Shown piece after piece: positions 25,741-39,800 of a DNA stretch of 64,000 nucleotides. Made by a program: the position numbers and the translations under genes. Numbering within the stretch: position 1 is the stretch's first letter; each line of letters begins with the position of its first letter. The notes beneath the pieces were generated by a model. That model was not told the DNA's origin. It ran no database searches and saw nothing but the letters and a program-made list of their open reading frames with translations. This DNA comes from a phage. The DNA is taken from the sequence record PZ445511.1; one strand, written 5' to 3'.

Positions 25741-25767
25741 ATAGCCCTTCGGGGCTATTATATTTAA
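25741..25767 (+). terminator. Rho-independent terminator
   Basis: tagccc-TTCG-gggcta hairpin then T-rich run. Confidence 0.55.
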
Positions 25768-25774
25768 ATTTCAT

Positions 25775-25803
25775 TTGCTTACTGAGTGAAATTCAAATAT
25801 AAT
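25775..25803 (+). promoter_or_regulatory. Sigma70 promoter
   Basis: ttgctt-17bp-tataat. Confidence 0.55.
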
Positions 25804-25827
25804 ATATTTTATAAATTGGAGACACTT

Positions 25828-29858: not shown

Positions 29859-30497
29859 ATGACTACTCGTATCTCTAAAACTCGTGCTCTGGCAACTATC
29901 AAGTCTCTAGAAGCTAAAATCCGTAAAGCTACTGAACAACAGCTTTTGATTGCTGTTGGTGAAGGTAAGGATAAGAACCAAGTTGTAGTTGGCGCTGCAA
30001 TCGAAGTAGATGCTCTGTCTACTCGTATTAAGACTGATTTCCAGTCTCTGTTGGATATGATGTCCCAGCGTGATCATCTGAAAGCAGCGCTGATCAAGAG
30101 CAATGCTGAAACTGTTGTAGAGATCGGTTCCCGATCTATGACTGTTGCGGAAGCAATCGAAGCTAAGCGTTCTATGGAACTCAAAGCTCAGTTGCTGGCT
30201 AACATGCGTAAGCAGTTCCATGCTGCTACTGTTAAGTTTAACACTCAGAAGGCTCAGTTTGATAACAAGTATGAGCGTTTGCAGGATACCATGGCTACCC
30301 GCGACAAGAAGACTTCTGAGGATGAAGTTAAGATGCAGCTTAACCTGCTGGAACTCAAGAACACTCCGTTCCTGATCGATCCGCTGGAGCTGGAAAAGCT
30401 GATCAAGCAACACGACGAAGAATACCAGGATTTTGCAACCAACGTTGACTTTGTTCTGTCTGAGTCCAACGCCTCTACTTTTATCGAAGTAGAGTAA
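29859..30497 (+). CDS. Hypothetical protein
   Basis: 212-aa ORF with SD aaggaag; high-expression-like codon usage. Confidence 0.6.
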   Translation: MTTRISKTRALATIKSLEAKIRKATEQQLLIAVGEGKDKNQVVVGAAIEVDALSTRIKTDFQSLLDMMSQRDHLKAALIKSNAETVVEIGSRSMTVAEAIEAKRSMELKAQLLANMRKQFHAATVKFNTQKAQFDNKYERLQDTMATRDKKTSEDEVKMQLNLLELKNTPFLIDPLELEKLIKQHDEEYQDFATNVDFVLSESNASTFIEVE

Positions 30498-30887
30498 TGA
30501 TTTAAAAGACTAGTAAATCGGTAGACGAAAGCCCAAGCATCTTACCTCGCAGCAGCGGTTGAAATACGAGGTTAAATAAGACCGCTGACCATACTATAAA
30601 GTATAATCTATTGGAGATTATCTTAATTTATTTTTCGGCAGATGTTGCATCTGTCAAAATAAAACAAGACGTCGTTGGTAGTACCAACACAACTTCAAAG
30701 ATCAACGCTCAAGTATGAAAGCTGAAAAGTTAAAAGCACTCAAACTTCTAACCTTCTAAAGCTAAAAGATGCAAAGTATTCGTTGATGATTCAAACCCTA
30801 GATCAAAGGTACATGGCTCATAAGATATGGCCTGTGGCGCCTCTAGGCTGTTTATCGGTTTACTAGTTTCACAATTTAAAAATGTAT

Positions 30888-30916
30888 TTGCTAATTAGTT
30901 TAGTTTTCTGTATAAT
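30888..30916 (+). promoter_or_regulatory. Sigma70 promoter
   Basis: ttgcta-17bp-tataat. Confidence 0.55.
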
Positions 30917-30946
30917 ATATTTTTAAATTGATGAGACGAGGCTATT

Positions 30947-31210
30947 ATGATTTTTCATATTCTTATTGATGATGTGCGTAACCTTCATGGAATGGACATT
31001 ATAATTCGAACCCCCGAAGCCGCTGTTGAGTTTCTGAATAAAACCGATACCACAGGTCATTTCGTTTATATGGATAACGATCTGGCTGTAGATGATATGG
31101 AAGGTTATCAAATTCTTCGTTTACTCCTAGAATTTGGTCAGAGACCCAAGAAAGTGGTACTAGTAACCTCGAACCCTTCGTCTAAGAGACCATGCGTAAT
31201 GATCTCTTAG
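30947..31210 (+). CDS. Hypothetical protein
   Basis: 87-aa ORF after promoter and gagacgagg RBS. Confidence 0.5.
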   Translation: MIFHILIDDVRNLHGMDIIIRTPEAAVEFLNKTDTTGHFVYMDNDLAVDDMEGYQILRLLLEFGQRPKKVVLVTSNPSSKRPCVMIS

Positions 31211-31268
31211 ACGAAGGGTATCAAGAAAGCCCTAATCGTATTGAGTACGATTGGCCGGAGTAAATAAA

Positions 31269-32409: not shown

Positions 32410-32438
32410 TTGCTAAACGCTTCAAAATTCTGTATAAT
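32410..32438 (+). promoter_or_regulatory. Sigma70 promoter; downstream HNH ATG sits 7 nt after the -10
   Basis: ttgcta-17bp-tataat; ATG at 32445 with no Shine-Dalgarno. Confidence 0.5.
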
Positions 32439-32444
32439 ATATTC

Positions 32445-32927
32445 ATGAAAAGGAAAGAATACCCTACTAAAGAAATACTTGAAAAATATTTTGTAGCTGA
32501 TCCTGATAATGGGATACTATATAGGAAAACAAAGAAAGGTTTGAAAGAGTGTTGTGCCAATAATAAGAAATCACATCCAGATGTGGGATTTCAGGGCGAC
32601 ACCTATCAACTGCATGTCTTATTATTTATTATGTACTATGGATATAGGCCTGAAGAAGTAGATCATAAGGATACTAATCCTAGAAATAATAGGAAAAATA
32701 ATCTAAGGGACGCCTCTAGATCGCAAAATAATGCGAATAGAAACCAACAATGCAATAATACTTCTGGGTACAAAGGAGTAAGTTGGGAAGGCTCTTCCTG
32801 GAGATACCAAGTAAGACATGAAGGAAAAAATTACAGTAAAAGAGGGTTTAAAACTGCGGAAGAGGCTTTCGAGGCCTCTAAGATATTAAGAGAATCCTTA
32901 CATAAAGAATTTACTAACTTTGGTTAG
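32445..32927 (+). CDS. HNH homing endonuclease (HNH_3 plus AP2-like domain)
   Basis: 160 aa; VDHKDTNPRNN...NLR and SGYKGVSW motifs; paralog of 26830 and 37805 genes. Confidence 0.7.
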   Translation: MKRKEYPTKEILEKYFVADPDNGILYRKTKKGLKECCANNKKSHPDVGFQGDTYQLHVLLFIMYYGYRPEEVDHKDTNPRNNRKNNLRDASRSQNNANRNQQCNNTSGYKGVSWEGSSWRYQVRHEGKNYSKRGFKTAEEAFEASKILRESLHKEFTNFG

Positions 32928-32965
32928 TAATAGTGGGGTGCCGAAACCACTTATGTAACAACACT

Positions 32966-33037
32966 GCCGTCCTAGTATAATAGGTATTATTAGGGCTTCA
33001 CCGCCTGAAGATGTGGGTTCGAGTCCCACGGTCGGAA
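32966..33037 (+). other. tRNA-like element (canonical T-arm, non-canonical anticodon arm, no CCA)
   Basis: gtgggTTCGAGTcccac T-arm plus 6-of-7 acceptor pairing; 5-nt loop where anticodon loop should be. Confidence 0.3.
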
Positions 33038-33499
33038 AGAGTTGGATAACTGGTGCTTCTAATGGCGAAGCAATCGCAGGCAGTTGCGCACTGCCAAAAC
33101 CACGCGGTAGTTGGTTCCAGGCTAACCAACCACTCTTGAAAAGTATATACTACGGTTTTGCTTGTTCAGGAAGCTTCGCATCGAAAATCGGAGGTGCGAT
33201 TTTATCAGACCGCGTGGAGGACGTCTCTCCGTTAAGTGACGAAAAGTGGGACGATTCAGGTAGAGCTGGATATGGAACACCTATACATATGCGGAGTGCG
33301 CACAAAGCATATTGCGGTGGTACTAAACGAAATTAGGAGTCATGACCTGCACAAGTTTAGTATGTCATAACCGATGTACATTCAGTACAAAAACCACTGA
33401 AGCTAAGATAGATAGTCACCTTGACTTAAACTGGAAGATATTGTCTGACGGAAGGGCTGCAGAGCTTAATCTGAGGGGGCTGACCCTACCTACCGTCGG

Positions 33500-33539
33500 G
33501 TATCTTTAAGAGTTCTTACGAGAACTCTTAAAGATACCT
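33500..33539 (+). other. Perfect 18-bp inverted repeat hairpin with TACG loop
   Basis: ggtatctttaagagttct / agaactcttaaagatacc, exact complement, 18 nt upstream of the next ORF. Confidence 0.8.
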
Positions 33540-33557
33540 AAACATTAAGGAATACTG

Positions 33558-34067
33558 ATGAATCTAGGAACTACTTGTATATTTGATCACAGAGAAATGT
33601 GTTGCCCACATATTCTGTATGTAGTTCACTTTGCAGAACGTCTTACTCTGGATGAAGCTCGTGAGAAAATGGGTGGAATTACTGGATATGATTTCCGTGA
33701 AGGTGAATACTTTAGCATTGCTCTTGATTACATTGACAATACCCGTCTCTATCATCTAGTGCAGCTAGGGGAAGAAACTGATGAAGTGAAAATGGCGAAA
33801 GATACTCTACGTCGTTATCGTCCTCAGATTCTAGAACGTACACTTCGTGGAGAACGTAGTGACCCATTGTTCTTGAAGTGCTATGACGCAGATGTTAATG
33901 AGTATCTAGGACAGCAACGGTTTTACACTGAAATCAAAGAGTTTGTTCGTGAAAAATACGACGCTCTACTAATTGATTCCAGAGCACGACGTGCAGCTAA
34001 AAATGCTGAGAAATCTGCTAAAGCAGCACTAGAAAGCCAAACCAAACTGAACGAAATCGTTAAGTGA
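33558..34067 (+). CDS. Hypothetical protein
   Basis: 169-aa ORF after aaggaa RBS. Confidence 0.55.
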   Translation: MNLGTTCIFDHREMCCPHILYVVHFAERLTLDEAREKMGGITGYDFREGEYFSIALDYIDNTRLYHLVQLGEETDEVKMAKDTLRRYRPQILERTLRGERSDPLFLKCYDADVNEYLGQQRFYTEIKEFVREKYDALLIDSRARRAAKNAEKSAKAALESQTKLNEIVK

Positions 34068-34075
34068 TCTAATTT

Positions 34076-34150
34076 CGGGGTGTAGTCTAAGGGATAGGCA
34101 GGAGTCTTCTAAATTCCTTTATGCAGGTTCGAATCCTGTCACCTCGGCCA
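34076..34150 (+). tRNA. tRNA-Arg (anticodon TCT)
   Basis: Acceptor cggggtg/cacctcg, anticodon loop cttctaa, T-arm gcaggTTCGAATcctgt, CCA encoded. Confidence 0.8.
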
Positions 34151-35346: not shown

Positions 35347-35383
35347 TCTTCGAACCAAGCCCGCGTTTCCTTCGAGAGCGCGG
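35347..35383 (+). terminator. Rho-independent terminator
   Basis: aagcccgcg...cgcgggctt hairpin then TTTCTATATTT. Confidence 0.6.
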
Positions 35384-35537
35384 GCTTTTCTATATTTAAG
35401 GCAAAAGAAAAAGCCCATAAGTTATTCAACTAAGGTCTTTAGTATTTAATTCTTTAGAATCATATACTATTATTGCAGCAACAACGTGCTAACCTTAAGT
35501 GCCCTGCGATTTTCCTCTAAAAAGTTAAAAAATTCGA

Positions 35538-37338: not shown

Positions 37339-37364
37339 ATAGCCCTCGCTTAGAGGGCTATTAT
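37339..37364 (+). terminator. Hairpin terminator after pnuC
   Basis: atagccctc-gctta-gagggctat, weak U-tract. Confidence 0.45.
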
Positions 37365-37378
37365 ACAGAAATTTTCAC

Positions 37379-37407
37379 TTGCTTAATATAGAAAATTTCT
37401 GTATAAT
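37379..37407 (+). promoter_or_regulatory. Sigma70 promoter
   Basis: ttgctt-17bp-tataat; -10 plus leader plus RBS duplicated from nadR promoter. Confidence 0.6.
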
Positions 37408-37437
37408 ATATTTATAAATTTGAGAGAGGAATCAAAT

Positions 37438-39725: not shown

Positions 39726-39800
39726 GCACCTATCGTCTAATGGTTAGGACATCAGGATTTCAATCTGAGAATTGAACTCCGATTCTCCGTGGGTGTGCCA
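39726..39800 (+). tRNA. tRNA-Glu-like (anticodon TTC) with degenerate T-arm
   Basis: Good acceptor, D- and anticodon arms (loop atttcaa); T-arm tgaac/tccgatt/ctccg pairs poorly; CCA encoded. Confidence 0.45.

What the first reader, a model, noticed from the sequence alone, without database searches (positions are those of the whole stretch)
33500..33539. Perfect 18-bp hairpin immediately upstream of a gene
An exact 18-nt inverted repeat with a 4-nt loop lies 18 nt before the ATG at 33558 and is not followed by a U-tract. A perfect helix of this length is unlikely by chance. It could be an RNase III-type processing site, an mRNA 5'-stabiliser, or a DNA cruciform or protein-binding site.
Basis: seen in the sequence. 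Interest (0 to 1): 0.55.

Follow-up and report, generated by a model that had tools for sequence, protein, structure and literature searches.

The report
End hairpin of phage RNAX RNA
The perfect 18-bp hairpin is real, but it is the conserved closing stem-loop of a long non-coding "stable RNA" (RNAX, already annotated in phage T5, function unknown), not a control element that belongs to the gene next to it.

Summary
It has an 18-bp perfect stem, a UACG loop and no U-tract, at -25 kcal/mol. Shuffled windows reach only 9-13 bp. The window is a T5-like Salmonella phage, 100% identical to phage bux. In T5 records the homologous stretch is annotated rnaX, "stable RNA with unknown functions". It runs from promoter P16-17 to the first base of tRNA-Arg(UCU), and the hairpin is its last structural element. 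More than 500 T5-like phage records carry it. Across 18 variants, 95.7% of positions pair on the + strand against 84% on the - strand, through G-U wobbles. Eight pairs show changes on both sides, and no shuffle out of 500 matched that. So it is a selected RNA helix, not a DNA palindrome. The gene at 33558 is facultative. T5 and Eps7 lack it and tRNA-Arg follows the hairpin after 5 nt. Other lineages carry different ORFs at that junction. The most likely role is an end-cap that blocks 3' exonucleases and sets the 3' boundary of the RNAX-like RNA. RNase III processing remains a live rival. The kind is known and the function is unknown, so interest is moderate.

The parts
33499..33538 (+). P3: 18-bp perfect hairpin with UACG loop (the finding). 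It is the last structural element of the RNAX homologue.
   Evidence: covariation
33539..33543 (+). Unpaired spacer UAAAC. In T5 and Eps7 it is the only sequence between the hairpin and the tRNA-Arg 5' end. It is also kept in Pantoea phage AAS21.
33447..33497 (+). P2: branched domain closed by GACGG/CCGUC, abutting P3 with 0-1 nt between them. Its inside differs between phage lineages, but the closing stem and an unpaired CUUAAU motif recur.
   Evidence: compensatory G-C to A-U in the closing stem seen by inspection
33414..33436 (+). 5' motif AGUCACCUUGACUUAAACUGGAA, containing the small hairpin P1 (AGUCA-CCU-UGACU). It marks the start of the conserved ~130-nt 3' module, is single-copy in the window, and is duplicated in tandem in T5.
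32928..33543 (+). Non-coding body homologous to T5 RNAX. It has 45-51% GC against 33-40% in the flanks and is mosaic between phages.
32965..33038 (+). Degenerate tRNA-like element (anticodon position reads uca) embedded in the RNAX homologue. It is also present inside T5 RNAX.
32410..32438 (+). Sigma-70 promoter TTGCTA-17-TATAAT, homologous to T5 promoter P16-17, which drives RNAX.
32445..32927 (+). HNH_3 homing-endonuclease ORF inserted in the 5' part of the RNAX region. It is absent from T5 and Eps7.
33558..34067 (+). Facultative 169-aa ORF of unknown function, lying between the hairpin and tRNA-Arg.
34076..34150 (+). tRNA-Arg(UCU). In most T5-like phages this is the immediate downstream neighbour of the hairpin.
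35357..35387 (+). Intrinsic terminator closing the transcription unit. It corresponds to the T5 bidirectional terminator ter1.

Best explanation
The hairpin is an RNA helix on the + strand. It is the terminal stem-loop (P3) of the orthologue of bacteriophage T5 RNAX. RNAX is a long, structured, non-coding early transcript annotated in T5 as a stable RNA of unknown function. It is made from the P16-17 promoter and, in the ancestral arrangement, ends where tRNA-Arg(UCU) begins.

The most likely mechanism is inferred, not shown. The polycistronic transcript is cut downstream of the hairpin. In T5 and Eps7 that cut would be made by RNase P at the tRNA-Arg 5' end, 5 nt away. In this phage it would be an endonuclease cut in the A/U-rich spacer before the inserted ORF. 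The long helix, stacked on the adjacent P2 domain, would then stop 3'-to-5' exonucleases. That would fix the 3' boundary of the upstream RNA and make it long-lived.

The gene at 33558 is a later or optional neighbour that sits in a permissive junction. This phage lineage has converted the usual wobble-containing helix into a fully Watson-Crick one, the most stable variant seen.
For: Identity and context (shown):
- The window is 100% identical to phage bux, genus Epseptimavirus.
- In T5 records NC_005859, AY543070 and AY734508 the homologous segment is misc_RNA rnaX, 'stable RNA with unknown functions', 719 nt. It runs from promoter P16-17 to the base before tRNA-Arg.
- BLAST links window 32924-33170 and 33412-33543 to T5 RNAX. 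The promoter is conserved.

RNA helix under selection (shown):
- 18 distinct variants come from more than 500 records spanning Tequintavirus, Epseptimavirus, Sugarlandvirus, and Pectobacterium, Enterobacter, Pantoea and Erwinia phages.
- 95.7% of cells pair and 8 of 18 pairs change on both sides, with 0 of 500 shuffles reaching this. Slid registers give 39-61%.
- There are 45 G-U cells on the + strand against 7 on the - strand.
- In Pantoea AAS21 and Erwinia KEY the tetraloop is replaced by a ~40-nt branch while the arms are kept.

Independence from the downstream gene (shown):
- tRNA-Arg follows after 5 nt in T5 and Eps7, and after 3 nt in Pectobacterium DU_PP_V. Different ORFs follow in other lineages.

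Non-coding (shown):
- Module lengths of 120, 124, 126, 130, 134 and 139 nt differ by non-multiples of 3. GC content is elevated.

Exonuclease block (inferred):
- This rests on established knowledge that stable 3' stem-loops with short tails impede PNPase and RNase II, on the T5 annotation of the RNA as 'stable', and on the helix sitting exactly at the annotated 3' end.
Against: - No transcript-end data were available, so the 3' end and the stability of the RNA in this phage are not shown.
- The T5 RNAX boundaries may have been inferred by the annotators rather than mapped. No paper on RNAX was found in the searchable library.
- A pure exonuclease barrier would not need so conserved a sequence. 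The upper 3' arm AGAGUUCUUAAA is invariant in 15 of 18 variants. This hints at sequence-specific recognition.
- In T5 the helix is only -12.5 kcal/mol.
- In this phage an ORF follows instead of a tRNA, so the nuclease that would create the 3' end is unknown.
Confidence: 0.5

Rival explanations
1. RNase III processing site. The 18-19 bp helix, possibly extended by coaxial stacking on P2, is cut by host RNase III. This separates the non-coding RNAX part from the downstream ORF and tRNA-Arg part of the early transcript, as in the phage T7 early region.
For: The helix is long, A/U-rich and lies between functional units of a polycistronic early transcript, with no U-tract. P2 abuts it with 0-1 nt between them. 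Helix length of 17-18 bp is conserved while the loop is free to vary. The downstream SD follows within 8-12 nt in three independent ORF insertions. From established knowledge, E. coli RNase III cuts hairpins of about two helical turns, and T4 species 1 RNA and the T7 R sites are precedents.
Against: There are no cleavage data. A fully paired stem would be cut on both strands, which would remove the hairpin from RNAX rather than leave it as a stabiliser, whereas T5 annotation extends RNAX through the hairpin to the tRNA. In T5 and Eps7, RNase P already separates RNAX from the tRNA 5 nt away, making a second nuclease site redundant. The stem is shorter than the ~20-22 bp typical of strong sites.
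Confidence: 0.25
2. Sequence-specific recognition arm of a functional RNAX ribonucleoprotein or RNA device. The helix binds a phage or host protein, or docks to another RNA element, and is integral to whatever RNAX does, for example in the tRNA and anti-defence island.
For: Sequence conservation is unusually high for a mere barrier. The upper 3' arm is invariant in 15 of 18 variants although several wobble-neutral transitions are available to it. It is part of a conserved three-element module (P1 motif, branched P2 with an unpaired CUUAAU, P3) retained while the P2 interior is swapped. The T5 tRNA region is reported to act as an anti-defence island (bioRxiv 10.1101/2023.03.15.532788).
Against: No partner is known. 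The loop is not conserved and tolerates a 40-nt insert. The variants are few and related, so the arm asymmetry may reflect few independent events. There is no Rfam family.
Confidence: 0.15
3. 5'-UTR element of the gene at 33558. The hairpin acts as a 5' stabiliser or translational modulator of that mRNA.
For: It ends 8 nt before the SD (AAGGA at 33547-33551) and 19 nt before the ATG. Other lineages also place an ORF start 15-25 nt after the hairpin. The perfect Watson-Crick variant is found in the bux group, which carries the ORF.
Against: The hairpin is conserved where no ORF follows. ORF169 homologues in L005, L011 and phage 1-23 sit behind the ordinary wobble variant. In Pantoea AAS21 and Erwinia KEY the ORF169 homologue is not preceded by the hairpin, because another ORF intervenes. 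The SD is not sequestered. No single-stranded site exists just upstream of the helix to create a protected 5' end.
Confidence: 0.07
4. DNA-level element: a cruciform, a palindromic operator, or a recombination or homing target.
For: It is a perfect palindrome in this phage. The junction next to it is a hotspot where different ORFs have been inserted. Homing endonuclease genes are nearby.
Against: In all other variants the palindrome is imperfect at the DNA level, and the mismatches are strand-asymmetric G-U wobbles. Compensatory changes preserve pairing, not a half-site sequence. The site is single-copy with no second site.
Confidence: 0.03

Closest known systems
Bacteriophage T5 RNAX (gene rnaX, T5s08; GenBank NC_005859 40848-41566, AY734508)
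   Same: It has the same locus, between the YqeY-like gene with promoter P16-17 and tRNA-Arg(UCU) followed by the SPFH/lipoprotein gene. Sequence homology covers the promoter, the tRNA-like block and the 3' module. The terminal hairpin is the same (T5: UGUAUUUUUAAGAGUUUU-UACG-AGAGUUCUUAAAAAUACU).
   Different: Here the region carries an HNH endonuclease gene at its 5' end and a 169-aa ORF between the hairpin and tRNA-Arg. The middle (P2) domain is of a different sequence type. T5 has a tandem duplication of the 5' motif. The hairpin here is perfectly Watson-Crick (-25.2 against -12.5 kcal/mol).
Bacteriophage T4 species 1 and 2 RNAs (rnaC, rnaD)
   Same: They are small stable phage RNAs of unknown function, co-transcribed with and directly adjacent to tRNA-Arg in a tRNA cluster that also harbours a homing endonuclease gene. 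From memory, species 1 RNA is an RNase III substrate.
   Different: They lie downstream of tRNA-Arg, not upstream. They are 119-139 nt, and rnaC is tRNA-like. There is no sequence similarity to the RNAX module beyond a T-loop match to the embedded tRNA-like element.
RNase III processing hairpins of phage T7 early mRNA (R1.1 etc.)
   Same: Both are long intercistronic hairpins without a U-tract in a polycistronic early phage transcript, just upstream of a ribosome-binding site.
   Different: T7 sites carry an internal loop giving a single-strand cut that leaves a stabilising 3' hairpin. The helix here is continuous, and no cleavage has been shown.
3'-terminal stabiliser stem-loops (REP-type and terminator-like hairpins that block PNPase and RNase II)
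   Same: It is a stable helix at the 3' boundary of an RNA that accumulates, followed by only a few unpaired nucleotides in the ancestral arrangement.
   Different: It is a unique sequence rather than a repeat family. It is A/U-rich and unusually conserved in sequence.
Large phage-associated structured ncRNAs found next to tRNAs (ROOL, GOLLD)
   Same: RNAX is a 0.5-1.1 kb structured non-coding RNA of unknown function in a phage tRNA region.
   Different: There is no Rfam match, even at E up to 10. The architecture is mosaic with inserted genes, and no evidence of relatedness was found.

Membership tests
T5 RNAX orthologue | Location between the YqeY-like gene with the P16-17 promoter and tRNA-Arg(UCU), on the same strand | tested here: met
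   same gene order and a conserved promoter at 32410-32438
T5 RNAX orthologue | Sequence homology to the annotated T5 rnaX | tested here: met
   79.6% over 250 nt (tRNA-like block), 72% over 142 nt (3' module) and 100% over the 23-nt 5' motif; the hairpin is shared
T5 RNAX orthologue | Accumulates as a stable RNA in infected cells | not testable with these tools
   This is known only from the T5 GenBank note. There are no expression data for this phage.
Intrinsic (rho-independent) terminator | G+C-rich stem followed by a U-tract | tested here: not met
   the stem is 28-33% GC, the following sequence is UAAACAUU, and the scan does not call it
E. coli RNase III substrate | About two turns of near-continuous dsRNA | tested here: inconclusive
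   18-19 bp, which is slightly short. It may stack on P2. Antideterminant rules were not evaluated.
E. coli RNase III substrate | Staggered cleavage in the stem that depends on rnc | not testable with these tools
   This needs in vitro cleavage or end mapping in an rnc mutant.
Any Rfam family | Covariance-model score at or near the gathering threshold | tested here: not met
   only tRNA hits. The hairpin gives chance-level miRNA-model hits (E 3-4, 14-17 bits against thresholds of 65-97).
DNA palindrome, operator or cruciform | Dyad symmetry conserved at the DNA level, equally on both strands | tested here: not met
   17 of 18 variants are imperfect palindromes. Standard pairs are 95.7% on the + strand against 84.0% on the - strand.
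Conserved RNA helix (generic) | Pairing maintained through compensatory and wobble substitutions | tested here: met
   8 pairs changed on both sides, covariation score 0.216 against 0.159 +/- 0.012, 0 of 500 shuffles reaching it. One row (AAS21) had its loop insert trimmed by hand.

The most novel reading that the evidence does not exclude
The hairpin is one arm of a conserved about 130-nt RNA device (P1 motif, branched P2 with an unpaired CUUAAU, P3) at the end of RNAX. RNAX itself would be a large functional phage ncRNA of the tRNA and anti-defence island, for example a decoy or modulator of host tRNA-targeting defences or of RNA processing. It would be comparable in kind to ROOL or GOLLD but unrelated to them and absent from Rfam.
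Probability: 0.2. Interest if true: 0.7.

Novelty: new member of a known kind. Interest (0 to 1): 0.38.

Why it matters
It re-assigns a striking hairpin from "regulator of the next gene" to "end structure of a conserved non-coding RNA". It shows that RNAX, annotated in T5 GenBank records (AY-series accessions) and apparently never characterised, has a 3' module under clear structural selection in more than 500 T5-like phage genomes infecting Escherichia, Salmonella, Klebsiella, Yersinia, Pectobacterium, Enterobacter, Pantoea and Erwinia. Most genome annotations miss it or overlay it with spurious small ORFs. The locus lies in the T5 tRNA region, which recent work links to anti-defence functions. 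The element is dispensable in the laboratory, because it is removed by the T5 st0 deletion. A defined, mutable, conserved hairpin therefore gives a handle for testing what RNAX does. As a structure on its own, though, a 3' or intercistronic stem-loop is ordinary.

Tried and rejected
- Rfam at gathering and at E up to 10, on the window and on Eps7, found nothing but tRNAs.
- A search for further copies of the arm or of the 5' motif in the window found none.
- There is no homologue in E. coli genomes. Two chance hits turned up in bacterial genome contigs.
- Two IMG/VR contigs (L017, L034) carry the 5' motif in front of an ORF but have no hairpin, so this is probably chance.
- L039, L042 and L043 match the degenerate hairpin pattern but are unrelated.
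- Comparison with T4 rnaC and rnaD found no similarity.
- Literature searches for RNAX, T5 stable RNAs and T5 transcriptomes found no paper on RNAX in the library. Two searches failed on syntax.
- RNAalifold on a MAFFT alignment recovered only P1 and P3, because the P2 interiors are not alignable. A consensus for P2 could not be fixed. The CUUAAU motif falls in a hairpin loop in some lineages and in a junction in others.
- MAFFT misaligned the AAS21 hairpin with its loop insert, so its loop was trimmed by hand.
- ORF169 has no Pfam, PHROG or NCBIfam family.
- Intrinsic terminator: rejected.
- Anticodon-loop mimicry and an HK022 put-like antiterminator: considered from memory and dropped. The loop size does not fit the first, and the position at the 3' end of the untranslated stretch does not fit the second.
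- Coding potential of the 55-aa ORF at 33342-33509 that overlaps the module: rejected on indel lengths.

Full report
**Observation.** The inverted repeat is real. Its arms are 33499-33516 and 33521-33538, 18 nt, 100% complementary, with the loop TACG. The hairpin is followed by TAAACATTAAGGAATACTG and then the ATG at 33558, so there is no U-tract, and the terminator scan does not call it. In 60 dinucleotide-preserving shuffles of the window, the longest perfect hairpin with a 3-10 nt loop was 9-13 bp. As RNA the 40-mer folds at -25.2 kcal/mol, z = -9.3. The arm sequence has no other copy in the window with up to 3 mismatches.

**What the window is.** It holds 28 tRNA genes, all on the + strand. 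It is 100% identical to Salmonella phage bux, a T5-like phage (Demerecviridae, Epseptimavirus). The hairpin lies at the end of a gap of about 520 nt with no annotated gene. That gap runs between a degenerate tRNA-like element (32965-33038) and a 169-aa hypothetical ORF (33558-34067). The ORF is followed by tRNA-Arg(UCU) at 34076.

**The hairpin does not belong to the downstream gene.**
- A distant blastn with 281 nt around the hairpin showed that window 33414-33543 is a conserved block in about 300 phage records. Many of these lack the ORF and have tRNA-Arg directly after the block.
- In phage Eps7 the hairpin is followed by UAAAC and then the first base of tRNA-Arg. Aligned to Eps7, the window has the whole ORF plus its SD between ...CCTAAAC and GGGGTGTAG.
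- Klebsiella T5-like phages and Yersinia phage phiR2-01 carry unrelated ORFs at the same junction. Pectobacterium phage DU_PP_V has a different tRNA-Arg 3 nt after the hairpin.
- ORF169 itself has no Pfam, PHROG or NCBIfam family. It occurs in only about 100 phage records.

**Identity.** In T5 records NC_005859, AY543070 and AY734508 the homologous segment is annotated misc_RNA rnaX, "RNAX, stable RNA with unknown functions", 719 nt. It starts at promoter P16-17 and ends at the base before tRNA-Arg. It is one of eight stable RNAs annotated in the T5 tRNA region.
- The window keeps the promoter (TTGCTA-17-TATAAT, 32410-32438).
- It keeps the block with the tRNA-like element (79.6% over 250 nt to T5).
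- It keeps the 3' module.
- The region is mosaic. This phage has an HNH_3 homing-endonuclease gene (32445-32927) inserted just after the promoter. Eps7 has about 1.1 kb of non-coding sequence at this locus.
- The stretch 32930-33545 has 45-51% GC against 33-40% around it, and it folds better than shuffles, z = -3.3.
- No Rfam family matches, even at E up to 10.
- The annotation of AY734508 shows that rnaX lies inside the segment deleted in the viable T5 st0 mutant. The RNA is therefore dispensable in the laboratory.

**It is an RNA helix under selection.** Sequences came from GenBank phages and IMG/VR contigs. Among them I found 18 distinct hairpin variants. The 40-nt consensus matches 523 phage records over at least 80% of its length.
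- The window's version is the only fully Watson-Crick one. The consensus is GGUAUCUUUAAGAGCUUU-UACG-AGAGUUCUUAAAAAUACC, with two to four G-U pairs and sometimes a C-A.
- Counting the 18 pairs over the 18 variants, 95.7% of cells form standard pairs and 8 pairs change on both sides. The covariation score is 0.216 against 0.159 +/- 0.012 for shuffles, and 0 of 500 shuffles reach it. Slid registers give only 39-61% pairing. One row, Pantoea AAS21, had its loop insert trimmed by hand after MAFFT misaligned it.
- The wobble pairs make the structure strand-specific. The + strand has 310 of 324 standard pairs, 45 of them G-U. The complement has 272 of 324. This argues against a DNA palindrome.
- Relative to the consensus, the window has four substitutions. 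All of them convert wobble pairs to Watson-Crick pairs or swap C-G for U-A.
- The loop is not constrained. UACG, CACG, UGCG and UAUA all occur. In Pantoea AAS21 and Erwinia KEY a branch of about 40 nt replaces the loop while the arms persist with compensatory changes.

**The module around it.** The conserved 3' module (window 33414-33543) has three parts.
- A 23-nt motif, AGUCACCUUGACUUAAACUGGAA, contains a 5-bp hairpin (P1).
- A branched domain (P2, 33447-33497) is closed by GACGG/CCGUC.
- P3, the hairpin of the finding, starts 0-1 nt after P2.
- The interior of P2 comes in at least four unrelated sequence types. A closing stem remains, with G-C to A-U compensatory changes seen by inspection, and usually an unpaired CUUAAU.
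- Module lengths differ by non-multiples of three, so the 55-aa ORF at 33342-33509 and the small CDSs some annotators place here are not credible.
- T5 has a tandem duplication of the motif plus a stem domain.

**Mechanism.** What is shown: the helix is transcribed on the + strand within an early unit that runs from the P16-17-like promoter to the terminator at 35357-35387. It is conserved as RNA. It marks the 3' limit of the RNAX homologue. It is independent of what follows.

What is inferred: in the ancestral arrangement, RNase P cleavage at tRNA-Arg leaves the hairpin with a 5-nt tail. From established knowledge, that is a poor substrate for PNPase and RNase II. This fits the annotation of RNAX as stable, so I favour an end-cap or boundary role (confidence about 0.5).

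- **RNase III processing** is the main rival (0.25). The length, position and absence of a U-tract fit. But a continuous stem would be cut through and lost from RNAX, and RNase P already provides separation in T5 and Eps7.
- **Sequence-specific partner binding** is suggested by the near-invariant upper 3' arm (0.15).
- **A 5'-UTR role for ORF169** (0.07) and **a DNA-level role** (0.03) are disfavoured by the comparative data.

**Comparison with known systems.**
- The element is an orthologue of T5 RNAX. Locus and homology were tested and met. Stability could not be tested.
- It resembles T4 rnaC and rnaD in being a stable RNA next to tRNA-Arg in a tRNA cluster, but it shares no sequence with them.
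- It is not an intrinsic terminator and not in Rfam.
- No paper on RNAX was found in the searchable library.
- Recent work treats the T5 tRNA region as an anti-defence island (10.1101/2023.03.15.532788). That is context, not evidence for RNAX function.

**Verdict.** It is wrong about which unit the hairpin belongs to. This is a new member of a known but uncharacterised kind, and interest is moderate (0.38). The most novel reading still open is that the module is part of a functional large phage ncRNA (probability about 0.2).

Noticed in passing
window 31173-31219: A 21-bp, 95% complementary hairpin with loop GCGTA lies inside the 3' end of the CDS homologous to bux_93 (30435-31256). Its purpose is unknown.
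   Followed up: no
window 37359-37408 and 25756-25804: Two 18-bp palindromes whose arms read ...TTCTGTATAATA. Each looks like a pair of back-to-back -10 boxes of divergent early promoters, comparable to T5 P15a/P12.
   Followed up: partly
window 32433-32447: The ATG of the HNH endonuclease ORF (32445) lies only 7 nt after the -10 box of the P16-17-like promoter and has no SD. Its mRNA would be leaderless or translated from read-through transcripts. The gene is absent from T5 and Eps7, so it is an insertion into the RNAX 5' region.
   Followed up: partly
window 32965-33038: A tRNA-like element is embedded in the RNAX homologue. ARAGORN calls it SeC(uca). Rfam tRNA scores 33 bits, with mismatches in the acceptor stem. 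It is conserved inside T5 RNAX and called 'tRNA-OTHER' in bux and Pantoea AAS21.
   Followed up: partly
window 33558-34067: The 169-aa ORF has no family in Pfam, PHROGs or NCBIfam. tblastn finds homologues in 104 phage records, including jumbo Erwinia and Yersinia phages (~31% identity). In Pantoea AAS21, Erwinia KEY and Enterobacter KKP_3711 it also sits right next to tRNA-Arg.
   Followed up: partly
L036 2600-2830 (T5 NC_005859, rnaX 3' part): T5 carries two tandem copies of the motif AGTCACCTTGAC(T/A)TAAACTGGAA, each followed by its own stem domain. This suggests the 3' module grew by duplication.
   Followed up: partly
window 39726-39797: Rfam finds a tRNA (35.2 bits) that ARAGORN did not report.
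   Followed up: no
L037 (AY734508) 1-11 and 323-1041: The annotation places rnaX and tRNA-Arg inside the segment deleted in the viable T5 st0 mutant, so RNAX is dispensable under laboratory conditions.
   Followed up: partly
L054 2510-2600 (Pantoea phage AAS21) and L056 485-570 (Erwinia phage KEY): The tetraloop of the hairpin is replaced by a branched insert of about 40 nt. The arms and the following UAAAC are kept.
   Followed up: yes
L003, L044, L047, L048 (Klebsiella and Salmonella T5-like phages): Automated annotations place small hypothetical CDSs over the RNAX 3' module. Indel lengths between lineages show the module is non-coding, so these are probably false gene calls.
   Followed up: partly
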